Source: Diplonema japonicum
Lineage: Eukaryota > Protista > Euglenozoa: Diplonemea
Length of the DNA stretch: 64,000 nucleotides
NCBI GenBank assembly: GCA_964019335.1
Contig: OZ025738.1
Location: 124,001-188,000, forward strand
Reading direction: 5' to 3'
A program made the translations under genes and the position numbers. The notes below the pieces were generated by a model. The model was not told where the DNA came from and did not search any database. It was given only the letters and a program-made list of their open reading frames with translations. This document shows positions 6,687-43,708 of the stretch, piece after piece; the stretch's first letter is position 1; each line of letters starts with the position of its first letter.

Positions 6687-6723
<37 letters not shown>

Positions 6724-10757: not shown

Positions 10758-12015
<1,258 letters not shown>

Positions 12016-23474: not shown

Positions 23475-23599
23475 TTTCTTTTCTTTGTTTTTTGTTTATC
23501 AGTCCACCCACCTTTTTTTGTTTTTTGTGTATCAGTCCACCCACCTTCTTTTCCTTCTTTCTTTTTCTTTTCTTTTTAAAAAAAACACAATGGAATATA

Positions 23600-24682: not shown

Positions 24683-27600
24683 TTACTCTGTGTTGCTGTT
24701 TTGTGTCACGTCACCGTCGCTGAGAGCCTTCTTCACATCAGCTTTTCCTTCCGTGATGAGGATGTGTAATGCGTCGGTGTGCTCTTTACTAGCCGCTCTG
24801 CTATACGGGGTAGCACCGTTGTTGTCGGCCTTGTTCACATCTGCTTTTCCCTCCGTGATGAGGATACGTAATGAGTCAGCGAGCCCATTCTGAGCCGCCA
24901 TGAAACACGGGGTAGCACCGTTGTTGTCGGCCTTGTTCACATCTGCATTTCCCTCTGTGATGAGGATACGTAATGTGTCAACCTGTCCATTTTGAGCCGC
25001 CATGAAACACGGGGTAGCACCGTTCTTGTTGGCCTTGTCCACATCTGCCTTTCCTTCAGTGATGAGGATACGTAATGAGTCAGCGTGTCCATTCTGAGCC
25101 GCCATGAAACACGGGGTAGCACCGTTGTTGTCGGCCTTGTTCACATCTGCATTTCCCTCTGTGATGAGGATACGTAATGCGTCAACCTGTCCATTTTGAG
25201 CCGCCATGAAACACGGGGTAGCACCGTTCTTGTTGGCCTTGTCCACATCTGCCTTTCCTTCCGTGATGAGGATACGTAATGAGTCAGCGTGTCCATTCTG
25301 AGCCGCCATGAAACACGGGGTAGTACCGTTTTTGTCCTTGTTCACATCTGCCTTTCCCTCCGTGATGAGGATACGTAATGCGTCAGCGTGTCCATTCTGA
25401 GCCGCCATGTAACACGGGGTAGAACCGTTGTTGTTGGCCATGTTCACATCTGCCTTTCCCTCCGTGATGAGGATACGTAATGCGTCAACCTGTCCATTTT
25501 GAGCCGCCATGAAACACGGGGTAGCACCGTTCTTGTTGGCCTTGTTCACATCTGCCTTTCCTTCTGTGATGAGGATACGTAATGAGTCAGCGTGTCCATT
25601 CTGAGCCGCCATGAAACACGGGGTAGTACCGTTTTTGTCCTTGTTCACATCTGCCTTTCCCACCGTGATGAGGATACGTAATGCGTCAGCGTGTCCATTC
25701 TGAGCCGCCATGTAACACGGGGTAGAACCGTTGTTGTCCTTGTTCACATCTGCATTTCCCTCTGTGATGAGGATACGTAATGAGTCAGCGTGTCCATTCT
25801 GAGCCGCCACGAAACACGGGGTAGCACCGTCGTTTTCTGCCTTGTTCACATCTGCCTTTCCTTCAGTGATTAGGAAACGTAATGCGTCAGCGTGCCCATT
25901 CTGAGCCGCCGCGTAACATGGGGTAGTACCGTAGTCGTCGGCCTCGTTCACATCAACCTTTCCCTCCGTGATGAGGATACGTAATACGTCAACCTGTCCA
26001 TTAAGAGCCGCCATGACACACGGGGGCGCTTTAGAGACATCTTGCGTTACAAGATGATCGGCAATCCATTTCAGCCCTTCATGAAGCCCGGCGCCAGTCG
26101 CCAGTGTGCACGGCATTACACAAGCGTCTCCTTCCAGACCGCAAGCACGGGTCGTTTTTCCGTTAGAATTATCTTCTAAAACAAGAACCGGTGCATGAGG
26201 CATCTCATGGGGGATTTCCGTCCAGAGTTCAGTACTACTGTCCTTCAAGAGCGTCACTGCCTTCCCCAATGTCGTTTTCTCGCCGTGTAAAGGTACCAGC
26301 TGCACCATTGTACCGCCTATGCTAATTGGGGACTTCATGGCTTTATCCACTCCGATGCCTAACCACAGTGCTACGGCTTCTAGCAAGTACTCCGTTCCCA
26401 AAAACTGAGGGAGCACACCGCTGTCCTTGAGCCGTGACAGTTGTGATGCTAACCCGCACGTGTAAGCCTCGGGGATGATGTTGTAAAAACACGTCGTTGG
26501 TGCGAATCTTCCGCCGTCGGACAACGTGAGCTGTTCTTCCCATGACACCGCCCGGCCGTCTACAGGAGCGGGGGACATCTCCCACGGCGTCCCGACCGTG
26601 AGAGGGATGGGCGACAGCATAGGGCTCGCTACGTGCACCTTCTCCGGACTGTTGCTCGTCATGAAAAAAACGTGTGTTTTCGATTTGTTGTACGCCTCAA
26701 AGACACCTTTGGTGTTCTGCCCTGCAGCATGACTGAATATCGCAGCATGGCTTTTCGGTTTGAACATTCGTATTGTTTTTCTAACAATGTGTCTGCTGCC
26801 GTCCATGGGGGTGTCCTCTACATGCGGGCGTCCGTCGACCTCGAAAACGGAGATCCGCTTCACGCCGTCGTCCAGCATTACACTGCAAGCCCACGACGCC
26901 ACATCAGGGGACACTGTGTTCGCCCCGTTCTCGACCCCAATCTGGACCACCTTGTCAGCGAATGTGATGTCAACGTGGCTGCTCTCATCGCTAGGCTGCT
27001 CCCCAACACTTCCCTTCCGTGCTTGGGGTAAGAGAGTATTGAGCATCCAATGCTTTTCATCTTCTATGTACACAGACGTGAATATTGAACCAGATCCCTT
27101 GCACAACCCACGTATTGCATGGGCATACTTCAGTAGTGACTGAGATGGGGTGATAATGTACACGGCGTGCCTGGAGCTTATCGAACGCATGAACTTCTTT
27201 TCACCGCCGTGGATGAACTCGGAGGTTGTTAAAACAACAACGTGAAATGGGCTCGGCGGCTTGTTATCGTCCACGTCTTCCTCCGGCACGTCGTTCAACG
27301 TTGTGACAAAATTGAACGCCAGCTTCAATTCAGGGTTTTCAATTAGATCCGCCGCACGGGCTGTGTCACCTAAGACGGCAACGAAAGGGTTGACCACCCT
27401 ACACGCTAGAGCAACAACCATTTCACGAACGTTCTGACCGGTCTTTGCGGAAACATTGAAGTGGAGGGAGAGAGGCGGGGCGTTTTCTCTCACCCATTCT
27501 GCGTACTGTTTCTGAATTGGGCTGTCGGGGCCGTCTAGGTCTGTCTTGTTTACCACGAATGCGATGACTGTTCCTTTCACGCATAGCTCTTTCGTGCTGT

Positions 27601-27931
27601 TATATGTATCTCGAAGCCTCTCGACACCTCCTTCTGTGCAATCCCCAACATAAACAACAGCCTTTATCCCACGAAAGTACGAGTCACGGATTGCGAAGAA
27701 CCTCTCATCGCCAGAGGTGTCCCACATTTGTAGCTTGGCAGGGGGGTTAGTTTCATTGACAACATGAACTAAGAAGTCGATCCCGACGGTGCGAACGGTG
27801 TTGGTTTCCATTTCCTTGTTGGGGCTTGCGATCCTCTTCACGAGGCACGACTTCCCCACTGTTCCATTACCCACGAAGAGCACCTTTGTCAACGTTGCCT
27901 TTTGCGGTACATTGTCCTCTTCATCACTCAT
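24683..27931 (-). CDS. Rab-like small GTPase + unknown middle region + Arf-like remnant + ~13 ankyrin repeats
   Basis: G1 GNGTVGKS, TVGIDF, WDTSG, NKTD and SAK motifs; PCTLATGAGLHEGLKWIADHL resembles an Arf C-terminus; 33-34-aa GATPCFMAAQNGHADSLRILITEGKADVN repeats. Confidence 0.88.
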   Translation of the reverse strand: MSDEEDNVPQKATLTKVLFVGNGTVGKSCLVKRIASPNKEMETNTVRTVGIDFLVHVVNETNPPAKLQMWDTSGDERFFAIRDSYFRGIKAVVYVGDCTEGGVERLRDTYNSTKELCVKGTVIAFVVNKTDLDGPDSPIQKQYAEWVRENAPPLSLHFNVSAKTGQNVREMVVALACRVVNPFVAVLGDTARAADLIENPELKLAFNFVTTLNDVPEEDVDDNKPPSPFHVVVLTTSEFIHGGEKKFMRSISSRHAVYIITPSQSLLKYAHAIRGLCKGSGSIFTSVYIEDEKHWMLNTLLPQARKGSVGEQPSDESSHVDITFADKVVQIGVENGANTVSPDVASWACSVMLDDGVKRISVFEVDGRPHVEDTPMDGSRHIVRKTIRMFKPKSHAAIFSHAAGQNTKGVFEAYNKSKTHVFFMTSNSPEKVHVASPMLSPIPLTVGTPWEMSPAPVDGRAVSWEEQLTLSDGGRFAPTTCFYNIIPEAYTCGLASQLSRLKDSGVLPQFLGTEYLLEAVALWLGIGVDKAMKSPISIGGTMVQLVPLHGEKTTLGKAVTLLKDSSTELWTEIPHEMPHAPVLVLEDNSNGKTTRACGLEGDACVMPCTLATGAGLHEGLKWIADHLVTQDVSKAPPCVMAALNGQVDVLRILITEGKVDVNEADDYGTTPCYAAAQNGHADALRFLITEGKADVNKAENDGATPCFVAAQNGHADSLRILITEGNADVNKDNNGSTPCYMAAQNGHADALRILITVGKADVNKDKNGTTPCFMAAQNGHADSLRILITEGKADVNKANKNGATPCFMAAQNGQVDALRILITEGKADVNMANNNGSTPCYMAAQNGHADALRILITEGKADVNKDKNGTTPCFMAAQNGHADSLRILITEGKADVDKANKNGATPCFMAAQNGQVDALRILITEGNADVNKADNNGATPCFMAAQNGHADSLRILITEGKADVDKANKNGATPCFMAAQNGQVDTLRILITEGNADVNKADNNGATPCFMAAQNGLADSLRILITEGKADVNKADNNGATPYSRAASKEHTDALHILITEGKADVKKALSDGDVTQNSNTE

Positions 27932-28337
27932 TTCTTTCCCCTAATTCTGTAAAAAATTAAAAAAAATAAAAAAAAAAGATGGAGGTGACACGGAACGAGA
28001 TACTTCATTTGATGACTTCATCGGGGCACAGCTCGAGATCGGTTAAGAGCTCATGGTGATGGGAGAGAAGGGACACAAGACATATACGCGAAAGAGCTGC
28101 AAAAGATCGCGGGGACATACGCCAAAGAAAAGAAAAACAAAACACAGAAGGAGAATTTAAAAAAAAAGGAGGGGGCACAATATAATGACAGCCCTTATTG
28201 GGCTCTCTTCATTTGCGCTTGGCACCAATGGAACAGCTGAGGGGTGGCCATCGGTTGTTTTTTTTTTTTTTTTGGAAAGGGAAGAATGAAAGAAAAAAGA
28301 AAATGGTGGCTAGAGATAAAAAAAAATAGCTATTTAT

Positions 28338-28846
28338 TGCCAACAAATTATGAGTTATTATTTAACTCGAGTTCCCGAATTTTTTGCACGAGGGCCCGCA
28401 GGGCCCGTGCAAAAAAAACAGTAACGAGAGTTAAATAATGGCTCATTTGGCGGCAAGTAAGTCGTTTTATTTCACTCTTCGTCATTTGAGTCACTCACTC
28501 TCACTGCTTTCACTGCTGTTTCTTTCCACGCAGGTCAGCCTTTTTGGGGATTTTCCTAAGGTAATATGGGGTTGCTATTTCGCCGTGGCATTTAAAGGGG
28601 AAGTAAAGCACTTATTCCCACTTTTAAGGGCTGGAATGGCCTCAGATGGCCAAAAATAGTCAAAATACCCCGCCCCCAAATAAATTTTTCAAGGGGTTGG
28701 GTACATTTCTTTCCACGACAAGATCATTTTTTCACTCTGAAGCCCCATAATTTAACTCCAAAATCTCATAATTTAACTAGTTGCCGTTTCGCGTTAAATT
28801 ATGAGGCCCTTAGTGAGTGAAGAAAATGACGAAGAGTGAAATAAAA
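28338..28846. repeat. nested inverted-repeat element (MITE-like)
   Basis: ~100-bp hairpin at 28350-28446; 23-bp IR TTTTATTTCACTCTTCGTCATTT (28465-28487 and 28824-28846); 13-bp IR hairpin at 28765-28805. Confidence 0.75.
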
Positions 28847-29010
28847 AAAACAAAAAGCATAGAAGTTAGATAGGATTTATTGAACTGTATCTTCAATTGT
28901 GTGAGAATAAAAAAAAAAACCGTCTTCGATGTTGAACAAATGCAAAAAAAAAAAACTCAAAGTACAGGACAAGCCCCCCGCTAGAGGGCCGCCCTATGGG
29001 AGGGGGGGGT

Positions 29011-32000
29011 CTATCTGTTAATACTCCCCTTCTGGAGCATTGCTTTCATTCCGATTGAGGCCGTGAGCGTCTTGCGGAGTCGTGTGATGCGGTCCCGCTT
29101 GTAGTCGGCTTTCAATTCCATTAGCTTGTCGTGCGTGGAGCGGGTGGCGAAAATAGGCCTCCTGGAGAAACCAATAGCTGCCTTTCCTCCAATGGCGATG
29201 AGGGACTTCACTCTTTTTCTCTCGTCCGCTGGGAAGGGGCGTCGCTTCTTCCGTGCCCTGCATGCTGTGTTTATCTTTACGATGAGAGCTTTGATTCTGC
29301 GCGCCCTATCTTCCAGCAGGCCTCCCAAAGACTTTCCGGTCGTCCATTCGAAGTCAATGGCCAGTTCCACCGCCGACACCTCCGAGGTGGTGTCCTTCTC
29401 CACCCAGCGCAGTTGTGACAACCATTGTAGCAGCGGGTTCAGGTACTGGGACAGGACCCCGCTCACTCCTTCGAGCTCGCCAGCTATCGGAACGGGGCAT
29501 TTCTTACCTACCACATTTCGAATCCACGGTAGCGGCTGTGTGTTGACATCCTCCTTCTGCATGAGCTCTACGTCTCGTTTCTCAACCACCACGGCTAAGT
29601 ATCGTTGCAGCTTGTCTAGGTACGCAAAGTCATGTCCTCTCGGCAGAATCGCGTGCAATTCCAGACATTGGGGCCATCCTGTCCTGTTGCGCAGTGGTTC
29701 CAAGCCGTCCTGTGCTAGCTCTTCCTGTGCGCAGGCGCACTCGTAGAGTTGGTGGCGGAGTAGGGTTACCGTGTCCGGGTACGGTGATTCACACAGGTCG
29801 CACCTGAACCCTTGTGTGCGTGATACTGTCGTTGTTGGGACTTGGCTTATGCTCTCTTCGACTTCTTCGGTGCCGTCACCTTCTGGTGCCAGGGGGACGC
29901 TTCTTTGATTCGTTCCTGCATGCGGGCTAAGGTAGGGGACCCGTCTCAGGCAGTAGGACATGAGCGGGTCTTTGGCTGTTTTCCATAGTTGGTTGGTTTT
30001 GGGATCCGCTCCCGCCTCCATCCCTCTCACTGTGTTCCTCTCGCCAGCGACCTGCTCCGGGCTTTCCTCACCGCGTCCCTAAAGACGTGTCCGCGTTCGG
30101 CCCAGGGTTTGTTCCCACAGTCTAGCAATTGCGCCCAGCTCCATCCTATATAGGGGAGCCACCGACAGACCAGGTTGCCTACTGGTCCCATCGGGGTGGA
30201 CCCCGTGCCGTACCCCGCAGCGATCCGCATGCATCTCTGTCGTAGTCGTTCGTCGTCGAGCGCTCCGGACACCACCTTCAGGGAGTGGTATATCACATAG
30301 GAGAGGGGATCGTTTGTGTGCCCCTTCAAGAGGACTGTGTTCACTGCGGTAGGAGAGCGTCCACGGTGGTGAGGGCCCCATAGGTTGCATGTTACCCTTG
30401 TCGACAATTTCTTGAGCGTCTCGTCACATGGGGGGGAGAACGGTCCGCTGTAGAGGCATGACGGAAGAATCGTCGTGCTGACCATGTGTGCTTTCGTCTC
30501 GAAGGCTAACCTCGTGCAACCCAGCCGGTCTAGCGAGTCAAGCGCATTCGCGGTCGGTTTGTTCCATTTCGTCCCTGTCCTGCGCGTGTTGATTTTCACG
30601 CCAAGCCCTTTGAGGTCCGACACCGTCTTGTATGGTACAGGTACTTCCGAGCCTTTCTTCATCGCCGTTCGGTCTCCCACGACTCTCGACTTGAACCCTT
30701 CCGCGGTGCCAAAGCCCACCGTCTTTTCCTCGTTGACCTGCATCTCCGTCAGGTCGCAAAACTCTAGAGTCCCTTCGACCGCTGCCTGCAGTGAGTCCCG
30801 CAGCTTCGCTAACAGATAGGCGTCGTCGGCATATGCTAGCACCTCGGCGTCCGGCGCTACCTGCTCGACGGCCCGTATCATGATGGACAGCAAGGCGTTG
30901 ATGATGATGACCGACAGCGGGCACCCCTGGAGGATTCCGTTTGTGGCCTCAAACGTGTCACCAACTCCTATGGGGTACTTGAACCTCCTCGTGATCTGGG
31001 AGTACATCCCTTGGAGTGCTCTTCCTATAGATTCGTCCATTCCCAGGGCGCTCATGAGGTCAAGGGACAGCTGTTGTGGCACCAGGTCGAAGCACTTTCT
31101 AAAATCCAGGGCCAGTCCCTCCAGCGGCTCCCCATCCACCAAAGCCAGCTCCAGCTTGGTACACAGTTCCATGAGGGCTGTCGTCGTACTGTGCTTGGGC
31201 CTAAACCCGTGCTGTCTCGGCGTGATCCAACGTTCCTGCCAGTCAAGGACACCCTTCAGCCTCGTACTCTTGATCACTTCCCTCAGCTGTTCCGCTGTGA
31301 TCGAAGTACGCGACATTAGGGTTTTCTTGATCATGTTCCCGTAGCGCTGTGCAAATCGTTCGTACTGTGGCTCGTCCTCTGGTGTCCGTGGAGAAAAGAC
31401 GCCCGACCAAGCGATCACCTCGTCCATCTTCCGTAGGTTTGCGGTCACTCCACCATCTGCCGTCTCAACCACATCTGTCCTTTGGTTTGGGTGGTCTTTG
31501 ATCCAGGCTGTGATGTGTCTGCGCTCCTTCCCAAAATCAGAGCGTATTGAACGTTCGTATGCTTTCGCCTGCATGTTCTTGCGGCATAGGAGCAGCTCCG
31601 ACAACATTCCCTGGGAGTAGTCCTCAGCTATTTCAAGCTCCCCCCTGATGCTATCAATACTCCCTGTCGCGTCGATCTTGCAGAACTCGACCTTCAGCTC
31701 TTCCCCTAGCGTCGTTATGTTTCTGAGCGCGTTCCGTATCTCCACCGGGAGCGGCCCGCAGTGTCCACCCTCATAGAGTTTCAACATTTGCTGTTTTGCA
31801 CTTCGAATTTTGAGCTTCAACTTCTCAAGCCGCTGTTGTCGATTTGTTGCCGCCCCGACTGCCGACTCCGTTGACCTCGCACTCAGCTCTGACCTCGTAG
31901 GCTCCCGTACCTTGCCCCTCCCGGTGTATACGTTGCGTACCGGTCCCATGTACCCATGTAGTAGGTATTGTTCCGCAAGGTCTGATATCTCTGAGAAAGC

Positions 32001-33038
32001 TTCGGTTGGCCTCTGTGCTGCAATGAACTCACGGTACCTCGACTTCTGCATCAGTGTCTCCGCTATTCCGACTGGCGCCTTCTTGGTCTTTGGTATCTCC
32101 TGCGGGACGGTGTATCTTAGGACTTCTTGTCGAAAGGCTGGGATGTTGAGTGTTACCGACAGGCATCGGTGGTCCGACCCGGAGATAGCCTCGCTTACTC
32201 CGCAATGCTCGAGCCCCTGGGCCGCGATGTTGTTCAACAGTACCCTATCAACCCGCGTATTGCAATTGGTTCTGACAAGTGTGCTCTCTACCTGTACTCC
32301 ATCCCTCCGAGCACAGAATGCAGCGGCGTCTATCCAGTCCGTCTGTAAAGCCCTCCTTAGTGTGGCGGATCGGGTTTCGTCCGTGTTGAAGTCCCCCACT
32401 ACTGCCACCAGCACGTCTCCCAGCTCGAACTTGAGTCGGTGTAGTAGGTAATGGAGAAGCTCTTCACGGTACTTTGCCTTCGTCGGGTCTTGGCCTGAGT
32501 GGCAGTATACATTCACCAGGTGGAGCCATCGCTTGTTCCCATCAAGTGAGATCTTTACGTGTGACCATCTGTCTTTATGCGGCCCAGTCGTTTCACAGAT
32601 CACCGCTGTCCGTGGTTTCTTCACAAAGGTCCCCAATCCGCCTCGCTTCGCTATCGTCAGAGACGTGACACCTTTGGTCTCCCTCCCTGGTTGTGGTTTG
32701 CTCCAGAATCTGGTGTACTGTCTGCCCCAAACATCATCTCTCAGCACGTGCTCGATCTCCAGCTGCGTCTGTGCCGTGAGGGCAGTTTCTTGGATGCAGA
32801 ACGCGTCCGGGAGGACAGTAGAGTACTCACCCAGCCGGTTGTTCAGTGCTGAGCCGTTGTGTGTGAGAATGGTGAAACTCTCTCGACCTGGTCCGGGGTG
32901 GGGTTCGACACCCTGTTCGATGAGGCGCTCAAACTTCTTGTCAGATAGACGTATCGGGTCGTATTTGGACGGACGGGAATGGGAATGGAGTGGAGGGAGT
33001 GGGTTTGAGGGGTGGGTTTGGGGGGAGTTCTCCTGGAG
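29011..33038 (-). pseudogene. family A ORF2: 2A-like peptide, APE, RT (internally deleted), Zn finger; frameshift at ~30030
   Basis: Open from 33038, right after the ORF1 TGA, to 30027; continues in another frame 30030-29011. The early RT motifs appear missing between VIK and STRLKG. Confidence 0.85.
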
Positions 33039-35199
33039 TCACTGCTCGCATTGCTCGCATCCGCGGCACTTTACCCTCTTGCAGTTCGGTATTATGCAGG
33101 TCTGCGCTGGGTTGCTTTTCGTGATGTTCCCGTCACAGTAGTGGCACACCCCCTTCCAGTTTTGGTACGTCCCGTTGTAGACGTGGCATACGCCCCTGCC
33201 CAGGCAGTCGTTGATGTCGGGGCCCTCGTCCAGGTCGATGTCGGTGTCATCGTCAGTTGGGGGGGGACCCAAGTCATCTTCCGTCTCCATGTCATCGTTT
33301 TCTCCCCCCTCGGCTAGCGAACGGGGCTGGTCTCTGTCCAGTCTCGAGACCGTCGCTTCCGTGAGAGCCTTTATCTGCTCGGTGAGAGCCGTCATCTGGG
33401 CGCGCATCTGCTGGACCTCCCCTCGCAGCTGCGCGTTCTCTCTCCGTAGCTCGACCACTTCCGTTGATGGCTCATCCCTGCTCGGTTCCGCCGCCAGCTT
33501 GCGGATCGCATTTTCAATGGCCGTAAGGCGGTCCTCAACAGCCGGGGTACCTGCCATCCTCGTCGTGGTGGACGTCTTTTCGGACTTCGGAGGGGCGACC
33601 TTTTTCGGGGGGGCAACCTTCTTTTCTGTAGTAGGAGGCTTGTGGCTTGGCTGGGTGGACCCCGTCACTGCACCAAGGTAGGACTTGCCTGTGGCTGCGA
33701 CCCCTGTCTTCGGTCTTCCCCATGACTGTGCAGTTGGTGTCTTCTTAATGGGCGGGCCTCCCACGTCGGGTGCTATCCTGCAGTGGAGAATCTGTCCTGT
33801 CGGGGATGTGATCCTCAGCGTCGTGGTTGGGGGTGTGCCTCCTCGGATGTACCAACACCTCAGGTTGTTGGTCCAGCCCCCGTGTAGAGGAACGGCCTCC
33901 CACTTCATGCTACGGAGTATTAACTCCACGTGCTCTACGCCGCATTGCCCGTACAGGCCCGTCAGTCGCCACCTCGGCTCCCCATGCTGTCCGCGCTGTC
34001 GTTCATCTTCGCCCAACACCTTGTCAAGGAGCGCGGTCTTCTTCTCCTCAGACGTCCTCACACCGAGGCGGCAGTCCGACTCACGAAGTGCTAGCCCCTG
34101 CTTTTCCGCCTCTGCCAGCTCTAGCGCTTCCTTCAATGTGGTCTCCTTCGGGAGCCAGGCGACGGGGGACCTCGGCACGTCCTTCGGCTTGACAAAGACA
34201 CCTCCCCTCCCGGACGTGCCCACGAACCTGTCGAGGCTGGCTCTTGGGATCGTCGCGAGCACGTCTATTCTCGGGGTCGGTCCTTCCATGATCCTGTCGA
34301 TCCTGTGGACCGTCTTGCAGCCTAAGCCCTGGAGGAGCTTTCGGGGTTCGGAGGTCACCTGCTCCCACCTCTGGGTTGAGGTGTGTGTCTTCGAGAAGAC
34401 GATCGCTACACGTGTGAACCTTGCGCCCAGGTCGATGTCCACTGTGTCCTTCGATGCGCACATGGAAATCTTCCCGCTCACTACGAACAAGAACATCTTT
34501 CTGTTGGTGAACTCACCGTCTGCCTTGAGTACGATGTCGTACTCGTGTCGTTCTGTGCCGCGGCGCTTGAGGATGAGCGCCTTGTTCCCGTCCCATCCCA
34601 TCTCCTTGGCCTCTCTTGCGTTTTCTTCGGTTGCGATGGCAACCCCGTCCTTCCCCGCCACCAGCTCTTCCCACGACACGAAGGGCTGGTCAAACTGCCC
34701 CTGCTCCAGCGACCAGCGTTTCGCTGCTTGTGGTACTTTCTGCGGCGGCTTGCTGTTTGGTCCTCTCCAGGATCTCGCCTCACCGTCCGAGATCGGAATG
34801 TCTACTCGCGGCAGTTTGAACTGCTGTACTGCTTTTTTCAGAACGTTTACGTTGAACGGTTCTGACGCGTTGAGATAAGCCCGACCGTCGAAGGCGACGT
34901 GGATGGGTAGCTTTTTGGACTCTCCCGAGATAGGTGAGACTGCGAGGGCGCCGTTATCGACCGTCAACAAGCGGACTGTCCTTCGCGTGCTGGGTGCAGT
35001 AGGTGTCGTAGTTCCCGGTGACGTTTACTTGGTATTCTTCGCTTCCTCGCAACTCTTGTATCATGCGGCGTCTAATGTCGCTTCCCTTCTTCCCTAGCTT
35101 CTCTCCGACCACTCCGTAGAAGGAGTTCCCGTTCCCGTTCCCGTACGCCTTTCTGTGCGCCGTCATCCCGAAGCCCTTCATAGCTTTTAAAATGTCCAT
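33039..35199 (-). pseudogene. family A ORF1 (frameshift/deletion near 34960)
   Basis: 81-aa and 643-aa ORFs in different frames; homologous to ORF 1-1296. Confidence 0.8.
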
Positions 35200-35479
35200 G
35201 GTTGACGTGGACCGCTGATGCTGAAATTGATGCTGTTGATGTGTTGTTTGCGCTCTTCTCTCCTTCCCTTCCTTGTACTAACCTAGAAACCTTTACCCTT
35301 CCTAAACTTATACACTTCCTTTGACCCTACACTTCTGTTTACTTTTATTTCCGTTACACTTTTACACTTCTTCTAAATCTTTATACTCCGTTGAACCTTG
35401 ATGTCGCGTTCTCACTTCCAATATTTGTATTTTCTTTTCAAACCGTTGCTGTGTGAACTTTATCGGCACGGTCGGACAC

Positions 35480-35517
35480 CAATAAAGTACAGAAACTGTA
35501 GCTTTAGAATCGTTGGT
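35480..35517 (-). ncRNA. spliced-leader (mini-exon) sequence, 38 of 39 nt, fused to the LINE 5' UTR
   Basis: ACCAACGATTCTAAAGCTACAGTTTCTGTACTTTATTG carries the kinetoplastid/diplonemid SL 3' half CAGTTTCTGTACT.TATTG and an AACCAACG-type 5' half (diplonemid type, from memory). Confidence 0.92.
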
Positions 35518-35820
35518 AAAAAAAAAAAGAAAAAAAAAGAAGAGAGTGGGGATAAAAGAGATTCCTGTCTCTACTTAAAAGAAAAACTAGAATAGGAGAA
35601 TTATTAAAAAAAATAAAATAAAAATGTATCAGCGCATTTCATCAAAAAGAAGGTTTTTTTCCCACGCAAGAATCTTTTAAAAAAAAAAAGGTATATTATC
35701 AAGGCCCCCCACCCCCCCTTGAGGACCACCTTCTTTATAATATTAATTGCTAAAAAAAAAAAAAAAAGTAGGGATTAGCATCGTTTTTGAGAGTTTTATC
35801 CACCATCCTTTTCAACATTT

Positions 35821-36495
35821 TCAATTCCGAGCAGGAGCAGAAGGCTGTGTGGCACCATATTGCTCCTGTTGTTGAGGAGCCGTCGGTTGTTCCCCAGCAG
35901 GAGGGTAAGCAGGCTCCCCCTTCTGAGGCGGTGTTGAAACAGGTACAGGGACAGGTGCAGGGACAGGTGCTGGTACAGGAGTGCCCACAATGTATCCAGG
36001 CTGGACTGTCTGAAGCTCTACCTGTTGAGGCTGTTGCTGAGGAGGAGGAATGCTGGGACGGCAGCAGCAGTACCCAGGGGTCATGTACTGGTGGGAGGCT
36101 TGTCTGTGGACCTGGCACATGACACAGAGAGAGCACCAGAATGAGGCACAACAGTCGCGAACCACAGTGCCCTCGATCCCGTACTTCTTCCTCGCCTTGT
36201 CGCGCATCGCCCAAGAGAACACGAACATGGGGAGGCTCCCTATCAACCCAAATGTTGCGTACCCCAGGGTCCCCAGCAGGCACACCCCACAGGACACAGG
36301 GATGTTCTTCGTCTCTGCATGGTCCTGGCACACCGCCTCGTAGTAGTTCCCTGTCATGCAGTACCCGCACCACAGGGTGTCGCAGCAGAGCCCCATGTCC
36401 TGGAAGCAGTCGAACAGGCCGTGCTGCCAGTCGTTCCGTTGGTCAAAGGGGGCAGTCGTCGTGGGGGCAGCGGCGGTAGCTTCAGGTGTCATCAT
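35821..36495 (-). CDS. PLAC8/cornifelin-family Cys-rich protein, copy 1
   Basis: WQHGLFDCFQD..CC..WC; R.KYGIEG...DCC..FWC..C..CQ..R; Pro/Gln-rich tail. Confidence 0.9.
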   Translation of the reverse strand: MMTPEATAAAPTTTAPFDQRNDWQHGLFDCFQDMGLCCDTLWCGYCMTGNYYEAVCQDHAETKNIPVSCGVCLLGTLGYATFGLIGSLPMFVFSWAMRDKARKKYGIEGTVVRDCCASFWCSLCVMCQVHRQASHQYMTPGYCCCRPSIPPPQQQPQQVELQTVQPGYIVGTPVPAPVPAPVPVPVSTPPQKGEPAYPPAGEQPTAPQQQEQYGATQPSAPARN

Positions 36496-37391
36496 GGTGT
36501 TAAGGTGGAAAAGAACAGGAAACCTAAAAAAAAAAAGGGGATTTGATGAGACGGTAGGTAAGGAAAAAAAAAAGGACATAGTAATTATTGAGAATTCTTT
36601 TTTCTTTTCATTTTCTTCTTCTTGTTTCTTTTTTCTTTCCGGACTTGGCCGTGTTGGAAAAAAAAAAAGAGAATATTAAAAAAAAAATGAAAAACAAAAA
36701 AAAGAACAAAGATAGGAATCAAAAAAAAAAAAAAAAAAACAAGAAACGAGAGTTGTAATTACGAAGCTAGAAATCTCTCGCCATTTTCTTCTTTTTTCTT
36801 TTTCATTCTTTTTTACGGAGAATATAATGCTTTAGGCTAGGATCGCATATCAGCTTTCTTTTCTTTTTTTTTTTTTAAAGATCGCTTGTGTCACTTTTTC
36901 TTCTTTATCTCTTGCGGGTGGAAACGTAAAAAGTAAAAAAAGGGGTAAAAAAAAGGGAGGGGGGAAACCACAGTTTGAATGCTTTAGAAAAAAAAAGGGG
37001 GGGAGAGGGTTAGTGGAACTATTGAGGCAACAATAAAAAAAAGCAAAAGAGAGGAACCTGAGAGGAAGAACAAAAAAAAAAAGAAGAAAAGAGGGTACTA
37101 GAAGAGATGGCCTACCACCCCCTCTTTTCCCGTTTTCTTGTTTATGTTTATCATATCTACCAGCATTCAAGGATCCTATGGTTTTTTTCCCCCCTTCTTC
37201 TTCTCCTTTCTGTATCGCGAAGTAGACTATTTGCAACCCTGGGGGGAAACAAAACAGCTGCTTCTTTTCCTACTCCTTTTTTTTTTTCTTTCTTTTTTTT
37301 ATCTCCGCCATAGGAAAAATTCAAAATAACAATTCTATTGCTTCGCTTTTACAGCAACCTTCATTTTTCTCTTTTCTATTCTTTTCTTACC

Positions 37392-38024
37392 CTAAGCCTG
37401 TTGTTGAGGAGCCGTCGGTTGTTCCCCAGCAGGAGGGTAAGCAGGCTCCCCCTTCTGAGGCGGTGTTGAAACAGGTACAGGGACAGGTGCAGGGACAGGT
37501 GCTGGTACAGGAGTGCCCACAATGTATCCAGGCTGGACTGTCTGAAGCTCTACCTGTTGAGGCTGTTGCTGAGGAGGAGGAATGCTGGGACGGCAGCAGC
37601 AGTACCCAGGGGTCATGTACTGGTGGGAGGCTTGTCTGTGGACCTGGCACATGACACAGAGAGAGCACCAGAATGAGGCACAACAGTCGCGAACCACAGT
37701 GCCCTCGATCCCGTACTTCTTCCTCGCCTTGTCGCGCATTGCCCAAGAGAACACGAACATGGGGAGGCTCCCTATCAACCCAAATGTTGCGTACCCCAGG
37801 GTCCCCAGCAGGCACACCCCACAGGACACAGGGATGTTCTTCGTCTCTGCATGGTCCTGGCACACCGCCTCGTAGTAGTTCCCTGTCATGCAGTACCCGC
37901 ACCACAAGGTGTCGCAGCAGAGCCCCATGTCCTGGAAGCAGTCGAACAGGCCGTGCTGCCAGTCGTTCCGTTGGTCAAAGGGGGCAGTCGTCGTGGGGGC
38001 AGCGGCGGAAGGTTGCGAAGTCAT
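37392..38024 (-). CDS. PLAC8-family protein, copy 2
   Basis: Near-identical to copy 1. Confidence 0.9.
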   Translation of the reverse strand: MTSQPSAAAPTTTAPFDQRNDWQHGLFDCFQDMGLCCDTLWCGYCMTGNYYEAVCQDHAETKNIPVSCGVCLLGTLGYATFGLIGSLPMFVFSWAMRDKARKKYGIEGTVVRDCCASFWCSLCVMCQVHRQASHQYMTPGYCCCRPSIPPPQQQPQQVELQTVQPGYIVGTPVPAPVPAPVPVPVSTPPQKGEPAYPPAGEQPTAPQQQA

Positions 38025-38410
38025 TTTCTTCTTTTCTTTTTCTTTTAAAAAACCTGTTATTATTTTGTGTTTTTGAGTAAATCGGTTTACAGGGGGGGGG
38101 AAAGTATAAAGAGGTTAGAATAAATAGCTTTTTCTTCTCGTTTCCTCTTTTTCTTTCTTCGTGGAAATAGGGTGAGAAAGAAGAACAAGAAGAAATTCAC
38201 TATGACAGGAAAGTGGTTAGAGGAGGGCTCAAAAAGACTTAAGAGAATCTGATTTTAAAAAAAGAAAATGGGAGTCTTTTGCTTTTTTTTTCTTATTTTA
38301 TCCCATTATCTTTGATAGAAAATACGAGCGGAGAGGAACTAGCCGTTGTTTGAACGGTGCTGCCAAAAGAAAATAAAAAAAGAAAAGAAGAGGTAAACAA
38401 AAGAAAAAAA

Positions 38411-38458
38411 ATATATGAGTTAAAGGAAGTCTTCGGGAGACGCCCCCTTGTTCTCATC
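38411..38458 (-). mobile_element. hairpin-only family B remnant (also 39995-40042, 41562-41609, 43146-43193)
   Basis: Only the ~48-nt 3' hairpin is present, between A/T tracts. Confidence 0.8.
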
Positions 38459-38983
38459 AAAAAAAAAAAGAAAAAGAAATATATAGCGCTCGAGTAAAAA
38501 GAAAAAAGAGAAGTACAATTGTTTACTCGGGAGGGGGGCGGGGGGTAGATTGTATTTTCTATCCTTTTTCTTTTCTTCATAACCAGATTGCTTATCGGAA
38601 TAAGAAGAAAAAAAAGAACTACCGCTTGCCCGCTTCAATTTGTTGCTACCGTCAACTAGTGTTGTAGTTTTGACAGCAACATTGTTAAAACAAAATCGAT
38701 AGAAGAGAAAGCGTAATAACACCCAGCAATAACAGCCAGTTGCCAATATAGCCCGCAAATAAAAATAAAAAGGGAGAAAGAAGTGGGTAGCAACGGCCCA
38801 CCGCGGTGGCGTGCCTACCTAATGATGCTCCCCTTTTGGGGTCGTTCCCCGCTACCCACTACAGTGCCTAGCTGACAAAAGTAAAAGAAGGGGGTGGAAG
38901 ACCATCTATAAATCCAAAAACTAAAACTTTCATATTTGTCGTAAGTAAAGGAACGTTTCTTTCTTTTTTTTCTTCTTTGTACC

Positions 38984-39616
38984 TTAAGCCTGTTGTTGAG
39001 GAGCCGTCGGTTGTTCCCCAGCAGGAGGGTAAGCAGGCTCCCCCTTCTGAGGCGGTGTTGAAACAGGTACAGGGACAGGTGCAGGGACAGGTGCTGGTAC
39101 AGGAGTGCCCACAATGTATCCAGGCTGGACTGTCTGAAGCTCTACCTGTTGAGGCTGTTGCTGAGGAGGAGGAATGCTGGGACGGCAGCAGCAGTACCCA
39201 GGGGTCATGTACTGGTGGGAGGCTTGTCTGTGGACCTGGCACATGACACAGAGAGAGCACCAGAATGAGGCACAACAGTCGCGAACCACAGTGCCCTCGA
39301 TCCCGTACTTCTTCCTCGCCTTGTCGCGCATTGCCCAAGAGAACACGAACATGGGGAGGCTTCCTATCAGCCCAAATGTTGCGTACCCCAGGGTCCCCAG
39401 CAGGCACACCCCACAGGACACAGGGATGTTCTTCGTCTCTGCATGGTCCTGGCACACCGCCTCGTAGTAGTTCCCTGTCATGCAGTACCCGCACCACAGG
39501 GTGTCGCAGCAGAGCCCCATGTCCTGGAAGCAGTCGAACAGGCCGTGCTGCCAGTCGTTCCGTTGGTCAAAGGGGGCAGTCGTCGTGGGGGCAGCGGCGG
39601 AAGGTTGCGAAGTCAT
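38984..39616 (-). CDS. PLAC8-family protein, copy 3
   Basis: Near-identical to copy 2. Confidence 0.9.
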   Translation of the reverse strand: MTSQPSAAAPTTTAPFDQRNDWQHGLFDCFQDMGLCCDTLWCGYCMTGNYYEAVCQDHAETKNIPVSCGVCLLGTLGYATFGLIGSLPMFVFSWAMRDKARKKYGIEGTVVRDCCASFWCSLCVMCQVHRQASHQYMTPGYCCCRPSIPPPQQQPQQVELQTVQPGYIVGTPVPAPVPAPVPVPVSTPPQKGEPAYPPAGEQPTAPQQQA

Positions 39617-40557
39617 TTTCTTCTTAAAAACCCTGTTATTATTTGTGTTTTTGAGTAAATCGGTTTACAGGGGGGGAAGGTATAAAGAGGTTAGAATAAA
39701 TAGCTTTTCTTCTCGTTTCCTTTTTTTCTTCTTCGTGGAGATAGGGTGAGAAAAGAAAGAAAGGAACGAAGAACAAGAAGAAATTCACTATGACAGGAAA
39801 GTGGTTAGAGGAGGGCTCAAAAAGACCTAAGAGAATCTGATTTAAAAAAGAAAATGGGAGTCTTTTGCTTTTTTTCTTATTTTATCCCATTATCTTTGAT
39901 AGAAAATACGAGCGGAAAGAGGAACTAGCCTTTGCTTGAACGTGCTGCCAAAAAGAAATAAAAAAAAGAAAAGAACAGGTAAACAAAAGAAAAGATATAT
40001 GAGTTAAAGGAAGTCTTTGTGGGACGCCCCCTTGTTCTCATCAAAAAAAAAAGAAATATATAGCGCTCGAGTAAAAAGAAAAAAGAGAAGTACAATTGTT
40101 TACTCGGGAGGGGGGCGGGGGGTAGATTGTATTTTTTATCTTTTCTCTTTTCTTCATAACCAGATTGCTTATCGGAATAAGAAGAAACTCGATAAAATTT
40201 CAGTGTGCATGGGGGTGCTCACTGTTCAGGAAGAAATTCACACTAATCGGTCACCGTTCTGCGGTTGCTGAAGAAAAGAAAACTAGCTTGCCTGCTTCAA
40301 TATTTGTTGCTAGTTTGTAGTTTTGACAACAACATTGTTAATTCAAAATCGATAGAAGAGAAAGCCTGCACTAAAAAAGACGAAGTGGTTAGCAACGGCC
40401 CACCGCGGTGGCGTGCCTACCTTTCTGATGCTCCCCCTTCTGAAAAAGAAGGGGGTAGAAGACCATCTATAAAATCCCAAAACCGAGTTAAGGATTATAT
40501 CCCTCACATTGTATCGCATACAGTGCTTTTTCTTTCTTCTTTTTTTTTCTTTGTACC

Positions 40558-41175
40558 TCAAACCTGTTGAGGAGCCGTCGGCTGTTCCCCAGCAGGAGGG
40601 TAAGCAGGCTCCCCCTTCTGAGACGGTGTTGAAACAGGTACAGGGACAGGTGCTGGTACAGGAGTGCCCACAATGTATCCAGGCTGGACTGTCTGAAGCT
40701 CTACCTGTTGAGGCTGTTGCTGAGGAGGAGGAATGCTGGGACGGCAGCAGCAGTACCCAGGGGTCATGTACTGGTGGGAGGCTTGTCTGTGGACCTGGCA
40801 CATGACACAGAGAGAGCACCAGAATGAGGCACAACAGTCGCGAACCACAGTGCCCTCGATCCCGTACTTCTTCCTCGCCTTGTCGCGCATTGCCCAAGAG
40901 AACACGAACATGGGGAGGCTCCCTATCAACCCAAATGTTGCGTACCCCAGGGTCCCCAGCAGGCACACCCCACAGGACACAGGGATGTTCTTCGTCTCTG
41001 CATGGTCCTGGCACACCGCCTCGTAGTAGTTCCCTGTCATGCAGTACCCGCACCACAAGGTGTCGCAGCAGAGCCCCATGTCCTGGAAGCAGTCGAACAG
41101 GCCGTGCTGCCAGTCGTTCCGTTGGTCAAAGGGGGCAGTCGTCGTGGGGGCAGCGGCGGAAGGTTGCGAAGTCAT
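40558..41175 (-). CDS. PLAC8-family protein, copy 4 (chimeric)
   Basis: 5' SNPs as in copy 2, 3' end as in copy 6. Confidence 0.9.
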   Translation of the reverse strand: MTSQPSAAAPTTTAPFDQRNDWQHGLFDCFQDMGLCCDTLWCGYCMTGNYYEAVCQDHAETKNIPVSCGVCLLGTLGYATFGLIGSLPMFVFSWAMRDKARKKYGIEGTVVRDCCASFWCSLCVMCQVHRQASHQYMTPGYCCCRPSIPPPQQQPQQVELQTVQPGYIVGTPVPAPVPVPVSTPSQKGEPAYPPAGEQPTAPQQV

Positions 41176-42134
41176 TTTCTTCTTTTCTTTTTCTTTTAAA
41201 AAACCTGTTATTATTTTGTGTTTTTGAGTAAATCGGTTTACAGGGGGGGGGAAAGTATAAAGAGGTTAGAATAAATAGCTTTTTCTTCTCGTTTCCTCTT
41301 TTTCTTTCTTCGTGGAAATAGGGTGAGAAAGAAGAACAAGAAGAAATTCACTATGACAGGAAAGTGGTTAGAGGAGGGCTCAAAAAGACTTAAGAGAATC
41401 TGATTTTAAAAAAAGAAAATGGGAGTCTTTTGCTTTTTTTTTCTTATTTTATCCCATTATCTTTGATAGAAAATACGAGCGGAGAGGAACTAGCCGTTGT
41501 TTGAACGGTGCTGCCAAAAGAAAATAAAAAAAGAAAAGAAGAGGTAAACAAAAGAAAAAAAATATATGAGTTAAAGGAAGTCTTCGGGAGACGCCCCCTT
41601 GTTCTCATCAAAAAAAAAAAGAAAAAGAAATATATAGCGCTCGAGTAAAAAGAAAAAAGAGAAGTACAATTGTTTACTCGGGAGGGGGGCGGGGGGTAGA
41701 TTGTATTTTCTATCCTTTTTCTTTTCTTCATAACCAGATTGCTTATCGGAATAAGAAGAAAAAAAAGAACTACCGCTTGCCCGCTTCAATTTGTTGCTAC
41801 CGTCAACTAGTGTTGTAGTTTTGACAGCAACATTGTTAAAACAAAATCGATAGAAGAGAAAGCGTAATAACACCCAGCAATAACAGCCAGTTGCCAATAT
41901 AGCCCGCAAATAAAAATAAAAAGGGAGAAAGAAGTGGGTAGCAACGGCCCACCGCGGTGGCGTGCCTACCTAATGATGCTCCCCTTTTGGGGTCGTTCCC
42001 CGCTACCCACTACAGTGCCTAGCTGACAAAAGTAAAAGAAGGGGGTGGAAGACCATCTATAAATCCAAAAACTAAAACTTTCATATTTGTCGTAAGTAAA
42101 GGAACGTTTCTTTCTTTTTTTTCTTCTTTGTACC

Positions 42135-42767
42135 TTAAGCCTGTTGTTGAGGAGCCGTCGGTTGTTCCCCAGCAGGAGGGTAAGCAGGCTCCCCCTTCTG
42201 AGGCGGTGTTGAAACAGGTACAGGGACAGGTGCAGGGACAGGTGCTGGTACAGGAGTGCCCACAATGTATCCAGGCTGGACTGTCTGAAGCTCTACCTGT
42301 TGAGGCTGTTGCTGAGGAGGAGGAATGCTGGGACGGCAGCAGCAGTACCCAGGGGTCATGTACTGGTGGGAGGCTTGTCTGTGGACCTGGCACATGACAC
42401 AGAGAGAGCACCAGAATGAGGCACAACAGTCGCGAACCACAGTGCCCTCGATCCCGTACTTCTTCCTCGCCTTGTCGCGCATTGCCCAAGAGAACACGAA
42501 CATGGGGAGGCTTCCTATCAGCCCAAATGTTGCGTACCCCAGGGTCCCCAGCAGGCACACCCCACAGGACACAGGGATGTTCTTCGTCTCTGCATGGTCC
42601 TGGCACACCGCCTCGTAGTAGTTCCCTGTCATGCAGTACCCGCACCACAGGGTGTCGCAGCAGAGCCCCATGTCCTGGAAGCAGTCGAACAGGCCGTGCT
42701 GCCAGTCGTTCCGTTGGTCAAAGGGGGCAGTCGTCGTGGGGGCAGCGGCGGAAGGTTGCGAAGTCAT
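42135..42767 (-). CDS. PLAC8-family protein, copy 5
   Basis: Same as copy 3, offset by 3151 bp. Confidence 0.9.
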   Translation of the reverse strand: MTSQPSAAAPTTTAPFDQRNDWQHGLFDCFQDMGLCCDTLWCGYCMTGNYYEAVCQDHAETKNIPVSCGVCLLGTLGYATFGLIGSLPMFVFSWAMRDKARKKYGIEGTVVRDCCASFWCSLCVMCQVHRQASHQYMTPGYCCCRPSIPPPQQQPQQVELQTVQPGYIVGTPVPAPVPAPVPVPVSTPPQKGEPAYPPAGEQPTAPQQQA

Positions 42768-43708
42768 TTTCTTCTTAAAAACCCTGTTATTATTTGTGTT
42801 TTTGAGTAAATCGGTTTACAGGGGGGGAAGGTATAAAGAGGTTAGAATAAATAGCTTTTCTTCTCGTTTCCTTTTTTTCTTCTTCGTGGAGATAGGGTGA
42901 GAAAAGAAAGAAAGGAACGAAGAACAAGAAGAAATTCACTATGACAGGAAAGTGGTTAGAGGAGGGCTCAAAAAGACCTAAGAGAATCTGATTTAAAAAA
43001 GAAAATGGGAGTCTTTTGCTTTTTTTCTTATTTTATCCCATTATCTTTGATAGAAAATACGAGCGGAAAGAGGAACTAGCCTTTGCTTGAACGTGCTGCC
43101 AAAAAGAAATAAAAAAAAGAAAAGAACAGGTAAACAAAAGAAAAGATATATGAGTTAAAGGAAGTCTTTGTGGGACGCCCCCTTGTTCTCATCAAAAAAA
43201 AAAGAAATATATAGCGCTCGAGTAAAAAGAAAAAAGAGAAGTACAATTGTTTACTCGGGAGGGGGGCGGGGGGTAGATTGTATTTTTTATCTTTTCTCTT
43301 TTCTTCATAACCAGATTGCTTATCGGAATAAGAAGAAACTCGATAAAATTTCAGTGTGCATGGGGGTGCTCACTGTTCAGGAAGAAATTCACACTAATCG
43401 GTCACCGTTCTGCGGTTGCTGAAGAAAAGAAAACTAGCTTGCCTGCTTCAATATTTGTTGCTAGTTTGTAGTTTTGACAACAACATTGTTAATTCAAAAT
43501 CGATAGAAGAGAAAGCCTGCACTAAAAAAGACGAAGTGGTTAGCAACGGCCCACCGCGGTGGCGTGCCTACCTTTCTGATGCTCCCCCTTCTGAAAAAGA
43601 AGGGGGTAGAAGACCATCTATAAAATCCCAAAACCGAGTTAAGGATTATATCCCTCACATTGTATCGCATACAGTGCTTTTTCTTTCTTCTTTTTTTTTC
43701 TTTGTACC

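What the first reader, a model, noticed from the sequence alone, without database searches (positions are those of the whole stretch)
32860..33050. ORF1-ORF2 junction: single in-frame TGA followed by a 2A-like StopGo motif before the endonuclease
Seen: ...CEQCEQ-TGA-CTC, then 38 open codons, then LIEQGVEPHPG|P (32924-32889), then the APE start FTILTHNG..IQET. There is no ATG between the stop and the APE motifs. Established: 2A peptides (DxExNPGP) precede the APE in L1Tc/Ingi-type elements, and UGA-C is a leaky stop context. Inference: two recoding steps, with readthrough setting the ORF2 level and ribosome skipping freeing APE-RT from ORF1. GVEPHPGP is non-canonical, so its activity is unproven.
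Basis: partly seen in the sequence, partly recalled or inferred. Interest (0 to 1): 0.8.

Follow-up and report, generated by a model that had tools for sequence, protein, structure and literature searches.

The report
Leaky-stop LINE with 2A-like peptide
A jumping gene (LINE retrotransposon) of a marine Diplonema flagellate keeps its two genes in one reading frame, split by a single UGA stop that every copy type examined shares, so its copying enzyme is likely made by ribosomes reading through that stop, and a 2A-like peptide just downstream may, untested, then release the enzyme as a separate protein.

Summary
The element is a decayed copy of a multi-copy APE-RT LINE family of a Diplonema species. 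The TGA is not a one-copy nonsense mutation: 7 of 7 contig records covering it keep TGA-CT, across three variant types 7-13% apart. The frame after it is kept. Codons 23-38 evolve as protein (8 synonymous, 2 not), codons 1-22 do not (3, 9). The motif is no oddity: it is the published class B 2A core (9 of 16 residues equal to active peptide B1) but lacks the Trp16 that class B needs, and PGP motifs precede the endonuclease across the clade. Readthrough is likelier (about 0.5) than AUG-independent restart (about 0.33). Against it: one variant type has an in-frame ATG, an ATA lies 22 codons before the motif end, no RNA structure is seen, and a sister family overlaps its ORFs out of frame. An in-frame TGA before the motif recurs in 4 of 8 readable lineages, not beyond chance. 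Both steps together: about 0.25. Each step is known separately in LINEs; my searches did not find the pair. The scan noted the same layout on another piece of this genome (e1-10630281).

The parts
33042..35024 (-). ORF1 frame (661 codons stop to stop; first ATG at 34601): coiled coil near 33400-33500, acidic stretch, Cys-rich C-terminus CxxCxG...CxxxNCKxxxCxxCxxC
   Evidence: (only weak coiled-coil Pfam hits below cut-off); homologous end read off-frame in sister family P0006
33039..33041 (-). Single in-frame TGA, context CAG-TGA-CTC (TGA-CTA in variant C)
   Evidence: unchanged in 7 of 7 covering contig records
32973..33038 (-). Proximal spacer, codons 1-22: C-rich (36 C of 66 nt), open in all three variant types, not conserved as protein, no AUG or near-cognate start; a CATTCC duplication here is 6 nt
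32925..32972 (-). Distal spacer, codons 23-38: conserved as protein (8 synonymous, 2 not); holds ATA at 32954 (codon 29) and, in variant B, AAG>ATG at 32939 (codon 34)
32889..32936 (-). 2A-like peptide KFERLIEQGVEPHPG|P: class B-type core, Lys instead of Trp at position 16
32100..32879 (-). APE endonuclease domain (NG..QET, GDFN, SDH)
30030..32099 (-). Linker and RT domain (YADD at 30833-30822); about 79 residues missing at 31267/8 in this copy
29011..30078 (-). ORF2 C-terminal part with a CxxC-x12-HxxxxC finger, cut off by a 4-nt loss at 30040 in this copy; stop TAG at 29013-29011, then a short 3' tail and a T tract
34954..35277 (-). Short upstream ORF (107 codons, ATG at 35199) overlapping the ORF1 frame; probably the true ORF1 start cut off by a lesion
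   Evidence: inference, not resolved in the contigs

Best explanation
This is the ORF1-ORF2 junction of a diplonemid APE-RT LINE family in which one shared UGA ends ORF1 and ORF2 follows in the same frame with no AUG, so ORF2 is likely made by a minority of ribosomes reading through the UGA, and the class B-like 2A peptide 50 codons on would, if active, release the endonuclease-RT chain from ORF1p. Shown: the stop, the frame, the missing AUG, the conservation of the stop across variant types, protein-level selection on codons 23-38, and the motif's place directly before the APE. Inferred: readthrough (about 0.5) and its role in keeping ORF2p scarce relative to ORF1p. Predicted and weakest: peptide-bond skipping at G|P on diplonemid ribosomes (about 0.45). 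If it fails, ORF2p stays fused to ORF1p or the peptide simply lowers output. The confidence given is for readthrough as the main route; both steps together are about 0.25.
For: TGA-CT unchanged in 7 of 7 covering records, in three variant types that differ from the window by 0, 24 and 14 letters in about 190. All listed junction indels are 6 nt. Codons 23-38: 8 synonymous of 10 changes against 28% expected, P 0.0009; the other two frames give 2 of 10 and 0 of 10. No AUG or near-cognate start in codons 1-22; first in-frame ATG at codon 330. +4 C in all types, and UGA-CUA in variant C, a described readthrough hexamer. An in-frame TGA after an ORF1-like frame and before a PGP-type motif recurs in distant relatives L001+L012 (both keep it, no AUG before the APE), L003 (TGA-CTG) and L008 (TGA-CAA). 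The two off-frame DNA loci (L002, L009) have an AUG within 40 nt after the ORF1 stop. Precedent: 12 Paramecium rows marked 'in-frame stop', read by the authors as readthrough. The motif matches active class B peptide B1 at 9 of 16 positions; relatives P0124 and P0132 carry the full Trp16 form.
Against: Codons 1-22 look neutral (3 synonymous, 9 not), so selection does not prove translation right after the stop; the 22/23 boundary was chosen after seeing the data. The two 6-nt gaps may be one event. An invariant in-frame ATA at codon 29 lies exactly one 2A length (22 codons) before the motif end, and variant B, the deepest contig in both X1 and X2, has an in-frame ATG at codon 34. No stable structure near the stop (|z| under 1.2 in 20 windows), and the window's UGA-CUC is not a classified motif. 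The layout is not fixed in the clade: P0006 overlaps in the -1 frame (inferred from protein), L002 and L009 are -1, L014 has five in-frame stops and an AUG. 4 of 8 in frame is not beyond one third by chance, and TGA is 56-84% of stop triplets in these loci. L003 and L008 are single copies, and L008 has an AUG two codons after PGP. Tca2's gag-UGA-pol junction alone did not direct readthrough in yeast. Lys16 and Gln9 depart from a consensus whose residues were all needed in human cells.
Confidence: 0.5

Rival explanations
1. Termination-reinitiation without an AUG, as proposed for mammalian L1. Ribosomes stop at the TGA, cross a C-rich unstructured spacer and restart at ATA29 (or ATG34 in variant B). 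The 2A-like peptide is then the N-terminal leader of ORF2, the usual place for LINE 2A peptides, and the shared frame is a coincidence or a relic.
For: Selection begins only near codon 23-29. ATA29 shows no change in any type, and B gained an ATG five codons on. The sister family P0006 has a Met 40 codons before its PGP end, with ORF2 in another frame; L002, L009 and L014 have nearby AUGs. LINE 2A peptides lie 40-80 aa from the ORF2 N-terminus. AUG-independent L1 ORF2 initiation and tolerant restart codons are described.
Against: Codons 23-28, upstream of the ATA, also lean synonymous (3 of 4, too few to weigh). ATA29 has C at -3 and +4. No frame-breaking indel or second in-frame stop is listed in the spacer of any type. 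L001 and L012 keep TGA in frame with no AUG, though they have GTG at +4 and +6.
Confidence: 0.33
2. An ORF2-only or stop-free mRNA is made by RNA processing: cis-splicing from the AGG|GTAAAG site at 33074 to an AG just after the stop, spliced-leader trans-splicing behind the pyrimidine-rich spacer, or an internal promoter as found in Tca2.
For: A phase-0 GT site at 33074 and phase-0 AGs at 33033 and 33030 exist. The spacer is 71% pyrimidine. Tca2's junction held a minor promoter. Diplonema has cis introns and a spliced leader (passages; own knowledge).
Against: No single AG in the spacer survives in all three types. A trans-spliced ORF2 mRNA would still have no AUG before the APE. No DNA contig shows the joined form (table 5 empty), although a spliced mRNA making ORF2p should be copied back preferentially (own knowledge, cis preference).
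Confidence: 0.07
3. A nonsense mutation (TGC>TGA) in a single-ORF element ORF1-2A-ORF2, so that all copies seen are dead or are mobilised in trans.
For: The TGA lies in the Cys register of a 9-nt repeat. This copy has three other lesions. Stop-free ORF1p-2A-ORF2p proteins are reported in Cordylochernes. L006 shows that chance in-frame stops occur in such contigs.
Against: All three variant types keep the stop while the sequence downstream kept evolving under purifying selection. The sister family's ORF1 ends at the homologous Cys-rich motif. No longer or fused homologue of ORF1 was found (weak evidence). An origin from TGC is compatible with the best explanation.
Confidence: 0.05
4. UGA is decoded as selenocysteine, extending the CxxCxxCxx register to a fourth (seleno)cysteine.
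For: Register of the cysteines before the stop.
Against: No SECIS or other family hit in 28600-35900 at E up to 5 except one chance lncRNA match. The codons after TGA are not conserved as protein. L003 and L008 have no such register.
Confidence: 0.03

Closest known systems
Paramecium tetraurelia non-LTR retrotransposons, Group 3 (PMC5405496; passages and supplement rows seen)
   Same: ORF1 and an APE-RT ORF2 in one frame separated by one stop; readthrough proposed from consensus sequences; sister groups use other frames or reinitiation.
   Different: Ciliate clade. No NPGP or HPGP found in the supplementary text held (whether the protein file was held in full is unchecked). Readthrough not tested in the passages seen.
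2A-bearing APE-type LINEs: L1Tc, Ingi, CR1, L2, Rex1, Crack (PMC3708506, parts 1-2 of 6; PMC3894237, part 1 of 3; PMC5814959, passages)
   Same: A PGP-ending peptide in frame just before the APE, within 40-80 residues of the ORF2 start.
   Different: Those mostly lack ORF1 and carry GD(V/I)ExNPGP; L1Tc has one ORF, RNase H and a 5' ribozyme. Here there is an ORF1, a stop in frame before the peptide, no AUG, no RNase H hit.
Class B 2A peptides, e.g. B1 from Symbiodinium microadriaticum, 55% skipping in HEK293T (PMC12338488; parts 2-3 of 8 and supplement rows)
   Same: L12, E10, G8, E6, P5, H4, PGP (9 of 16 positions; T11 too in variant B). GVEPHPGP itself occurs in 12 rows of Table S2.
   Different: Trp16, called invariant and needed in register, is Lys; Phe stands at 15, as in sister family P0006; E9 is Gln. 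QGVEP occurs in none of the 4 files searched.
ORF1p-2A-ORF2p elements of Cordylochernes scorpioides (PMC13405545, preprint; passages)
   Same: A 2A-like peptide between ORF1p and ORF2p domains.
   Different: Described as one protein; no intervening stop in the passages seen.
Candida albicans Tca2 (PMC2194720; abstract and outline)
   Same: Retrotransposon with an in-frame UGA between structural and enzymatic ORFs.
   Different: LTR element with a predicted pseudoknot; junction sequence alone gave no readthrough in yeast; no 2A mentioned in the abstract.

Membership tests
APE-type non-LTR retrotransposon | APE followed by RT in ORF2 | tested here: met
   PF03372 E 4.4e-9, PF00078 E 3.1e-19; best solved relatives of P0003 are R2 and L1 proteins
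APE-type non-LTR retrotransposon | Many dispersed copies, more 3' than 5' ends | tested here: met
   Summed contig depth in X1 falls from about 2,500 at the 3' end to 18-38 over 34208-35292 (depth is no copy number)
APE-type non-LTR retrotransposon | Target-site duplication | tested here: inconclusive
   None evident among the 20 repeat families shown of at least 60; 5' end not fixed
L1Tc/Ingi type | Single ORF without ORF1 | tested here: not met
   661-codon ORF1 frame upstream of the stop
L1Tc/Ingi type | RNase H after RT | tested here: not met
   No Pfam hit at E up to 0.1 in 30030-33038 beyond APE and RT, none in 29014-30078
L1Tc/Ingi type | 5' Pr77 / HDV-like ribozyme | tested here: inconclusive
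   No Rfam hit; Rfam may hold no model for it
Class A (canonical) 2A | GD(V/I)ExNPGP core | tested here: not met
   QGVEPHPGP: G for D, H for N
Class B 2A | EEGIE-like centre, Pro5, N/H4, PGP | tested here: met
   EQGVE-P-H-PGP; 9 of 16 equal to B1
Class B 2A | Invariant Trp at position 16, in register | tested here: not met
   Lys16, Phe15
Class B 2A | Measured skipping at G|P | not testable with these tools
   needs a reporter
LINE 2A-like peptides (Odon 2013) | In frame, 40-80 aa into ORF2, just before the APE | tested here: met
   ends 50 codons after the stop, 4 codons before FTILTHNG
Type II readthrough signal | UGA-CUA or UGA-CGG | tested here: inconclusive
   window and variant B have UGA-CUC; variant C has UGA-CUA
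Type II readthrough signal | Downstream stimulatory stem-loop | tested here: not met
   20 windows of 120 nt, z between -0.93 and +1.14; long-range pairing not tested
Paramecium Group 3-like junction | One in-frame stop shared by the copies of a family | tested here: met
   7 of 7 covering records; works like it, not shown to be the same clade
Selenoprotein UGA | SECIS element | tested here: inconclusive
   no Rfam hit

The most novel reading that the evidence does not exclude
A protist LINE clade repeatedly uses a two-step recoding cassette: UGA readthrough sets how little ORF2p is made, and a StopGo peptide of a new Trp-less, Phe15 subtype (FxRL[IT]xQG[IV]xP[NH]PGP) cuts it free during translation. 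This gives an AUG-free, protease-free way to make a separate endonuclease-RT starting at Pro, and families switch between this cassette, -1 overlap with an AUG, and direct OTU fusion.
Probability: 0.25. Interest if true: 0.75.

Novelty: new variant of a known kind. Interest (0 to 1): 0.5.

Why it matters
How LINEs translate ORF2 from a two-gene mRNA is still unsettled. Here the candidate signals sit in 150 nt, and natural variants differ at the informative places (UGA-CUC against UGA-CUA; ATG34 present or absent), so a few reporters could separate readthrough from restart. If both steps are real, it is a serial readthrough-plus-StopGo device that my literature searches did not find in a retrotransposon, and a 2A subtype without the Trp thought essential for class B. 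If only one is real, it extends a known feature to diplonemids.

Tried and rejected
No whole genome is held for this window, so copies were read only as Logan contigs. No RNA holder was listed; this says nothing about expression. The first laying was truncated (1,517 differences not shown) and was not used for the stop. I first read the lack of listed changes in the motif and in 33046-33077 as nucleotide conservation and dropped this: 4 of 24 letters of variant B and 3 of 14 of C are not listed, probably because they lie near aligned ends or under the 5% share, so invariance of the motif codons in B and C is not shown; PGP in B rests on one loose end. Rows were assigned to B or C by matching depth values. 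ORF1 found no homologue at near or longer lengths, and only Atlas leads under 0.9 (CCHC and RRM clusters). The first metagenome scan and the viral scan found no relative. An OTU-like look of the 35277-34954 ORF, seen by eye, was not supported by Pfam or by tblastn with three OTU domains. A GVEAHPGP match at +5311 is on the strand opposite to the LINE remnant there and was taken as chance. No tRNA gene in the window, so the tRNA-targeting reported for other families in this genome does not apply here. The LINE clade could not be named: no reference library of elements is on hand. P0012 and P0017 were left out of the tree because my pattern did not find their APE start.

Full report
Observation. 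Every detail of the finding is in the sequence. On the minus strand a 661-codon frame ends CEQCEQ-TGA (33041-33039), followed by CTC, 38 open codons, LIEQGVEPHPGP (32924-32889) and FTILTHNG..IQET. The first in-frame ATG after the stop is codon 330, past the APE. The downstream frame is an APE-RT protein.

What it is. Its closest protein relatives are named Diplonema japonicum transcripts (P0001-P0003: 61% identity over 506 residues and 73% over 317), and another D. japonicum protein (P0006) matches a second element in the window at up to 95%. The host is therefore a Diplonema, most likely that species. The family is multi-copy and 5'-truncated: summed contig depth in run X1 falls from about 2,500 at the 3' end to 18-38 near the 5' end (depth is no copy number). 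The window copy is dead for other reasons: about 79 RT residues are missing at 31267/8, 4 nt are missing at 30040, and the 5' ORF is in two frames. That made a nonsense mutation a serious possibility.

Is the stop shared? I laid four runs on 32880-33080 (tables complete). Ten contig records were laid and 7 cover the stop. They fall into the window type (A), type B (24 other letters and a 6-nt gap in 190 nt; the deepest contig in X1 and X2) and type C (14 letters and a 6-nt gap). None differs at 33037-33041. X1 and X2 may include the window's source; X11 and X12 are shallow and near-identical to A. Invariance of three letters at this divergence is unremarkable alone. What counts is that the lineages kept the stop while the region downstream stayed under selection. 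Of 25 distinct listed differences, codons 23-38 carry 8 synonymous and 2 non-synonymous changes (28% synonymous expected, P 0.0009; other frames 2 of 10 and 0 of 10), codons 1-22 carry 3 and 9, the motif 0 and 1 (I>T), the ORF1 end 2 and 0. The boundary was chosen after seeing the data, and 7 of 38 letters were not placed. The two 6-nt gaps may be one CATTCC duplication in type A; a further 6-nt insertion follows PGP. The nonsense-mutation reading is rejected.

Does ORF1 really end here? In the sister family P0006, the residues before its motif are compatible, in the +1 frame, with the window's CxxxNCKxxxCxxC at exactly one place; the background was 3 of 218,928 positions, all one site. So ORF1 ends at a homologous Cys-rich motif there too, but ORF2 lies in the -1 frame with a Met 40 codons before the PGP end. 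This is inferred from a predicted protein; the five isoforms are not independent.

Relatives with DNA. Scans gave 17 loci. Nine start inside ORF2 and 8 reach upstream of the APE. L001 and L012 (one family) both have an ORF1-like frame, TGA, 40 codons, a canonical GDVEQNPGP and no AUG before the APE; their spacer has 6 synonymous and 5 other changes, and GTG at +4 and +6. L003 has TGA-CTG after a coiled-coil and Cys-rich frame, then 2,463 open codons (first Met at 51, degenerate motif at 325). L008 has TGA-CAA 76 codons before the motif end, with an AUG two codons after it. L002 and L009 overlap in the -1 frame with an AUG 38 and 26 nt after the stop. L014 has five in-frame stops and an AUG. 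L013 is open to the contig end. With the window and P0006, 4 of 8 readable two-ORF lineages have a single in-frame TGA. That is suggestive but within chance, as TGA makes up 56-84% of stop triplets in these loci. P0007 and P0008 fuse an OTU domain straight to the APE. An APE tree of 25 rows puts the window with P0005, then with P0006-P0008 (98/93), and scatters the in-frame cases. The junction is evolutionarily labile.

The peptide. Among 150 listed hits, 51 had an APE start with at least 14 residues upstream, and 31 of these had an [NHL]PG motif within 90 residues: 14 GEAx(N/H/L)PG, 10 GD(V/I)xx(N/H)PGP, 3 G(I/V)xx(N/H)PGP, 4 loose matches. The motif is thus clade-wide and often degenerate, which could also mean a role other than skipping. 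The window's form is the class B core of Rao et al. 2025: 9 of 16 residues equal B1 (WVRDLTEEGIEPHPGP, 55% skipping), and GVEPHPGP is in 12 rows of their table. But Trp16 was invariant, its loss or shift abolished activity in human cells, His4 was weaker than Asn, and 8 of 17 class B peptides were active. Here position 16 is Lys and 15 is Phe, as in P0006, while P0124 and P0132 have Trp16. It works like a class B peptide at best; it is not a member by that paper's definition.

Mechanism. Shown: shared stop, shared frame, no AUG in types A and C, translated distal linker, motif before the APE. Ribosomes must enter ORF2 upstream of the motif. Readthrough is the simplest route (about 0.5): there is no near-cognate start in codons 1-22, +4 is C, type C has UGA-CUA, and Paramecium Group 3 is a precedent. 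Restart is close behind (about 0.33): ATA29 would give a 22-residue leader, type B has ATG34, no structure flanks the stop, and L1 ORF2 is thought to initiate without its AUG. Tca2 shows that an in-frame UGA need not be read through by local signals. Splicing, a dead single ORF and selenocysteine are unlikely. Skipping is about 0.45; the preprint by passage reports that most LINE 2A-like peptides it tested lowered protein output, so attenuation is a further possible role.

Known and new. In-frame-stop LINEs, 2A before the APE, and ORF1p-2A-ORF2p fusions are each in print. Seven searches did not list a paper describing a stop plus a 2A in series in a retrotransposon; the library lacks most subscription papers and Repbase reports, and I did not look at the preprint's supplements. 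Papers seen: PMC3708506 parts 1-2 of 6; PMC3894237 part 1 of 3; PMC12338488 passages, parts 2-3 of 8 and a supplement search; PMC5405496 passages and two supplement searches; PMC2194720 abstract and outline; passages only of PMC13405545, PMC5972666, PMC10275272, PMC5009743, PMC13517186, PMC5814959, PMC10161547 and PMC8310308. The scan's note e1-10630281 reports the same layout on another piece of this genome and gave me the Paramecium lead; my two sequence look-ups found no look-alike, so I cannot say whether it is the same family.

Verdict. A real, family-wide junction; a new variant of known LINE translation strategies; readthrough likely but not shown, skipping doubtful. Interest 0.5.

Noticed in passing
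P0006 (residues 520-586); L002 1005-1200; L009 2412-2606: All three off-frame junctions have ORF2 in the -1 frame with a long open overlap, so -1 frameshifting is as possible there as restart at the nearby AUG.
   Followed up: partly
window 33068-33033 (-): The TGA falls in the Cys register of a 9-nt repeat (TGC GAG CAA / TGC GAG CAG / TGA CTC CAG); the stop may have arisen from a TGC and then been kept.
   Followed up: partly
window 32888, loose ends in X2: One variant type appears to continue the motif with a second PGP (HPGP-EPGP-ESFTI); read from a two-contig consensus, so uncertain.
   Followed up: no
P0007, P0008, P0017: Sister LINE families with an OTU domain fused directly to the APE; P0007 and P0008 have a degenerate RGN(S/L)PGP between them.
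   Followed up: partly
window 4239-6715, 9905-12000, 17422-17898, 23022-24125 (-): Remnants of other LINE families (P0009- and P0006-like); the 9.9-12 kb copy joins ORF1 straight to the ORF2 tail and has a long (CAA)n expansion in ORF1.
   Followed up: partly
L014 about 500-830: Two 2A-like motifs: GDVAENPGP off-frame at the ORF1 end and GDVEYNPGP before the APE; the contig is a eukaryote-type LINE inside an archaeal MAG, as L013 and L015-L017 are inside bacterial MAGs (likely binning contamination).
   Followed up: no
window 35800-46200 (-): Tandem array of at least six near-identical Cys-rich genes that look PLAC8-like (name from memory, not searched), with differing C-termini.
   Followed up: no
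window 24683-27940 (-), 51070-52316, 62150-64000: A 1,082-aa gene with a small-GTPase-like N-terminus and a long ankyrin-like repeat tail (labels by eye); related repeat arrays recur twice more in the window.
   Followed up: no
window 1-1314 (-): Open frame of 438 codons with a weak match to the OTU-APE region of P0017 (E 7e-12) but no Pfam hit; possibly the start of another element.
   Followed up: partly
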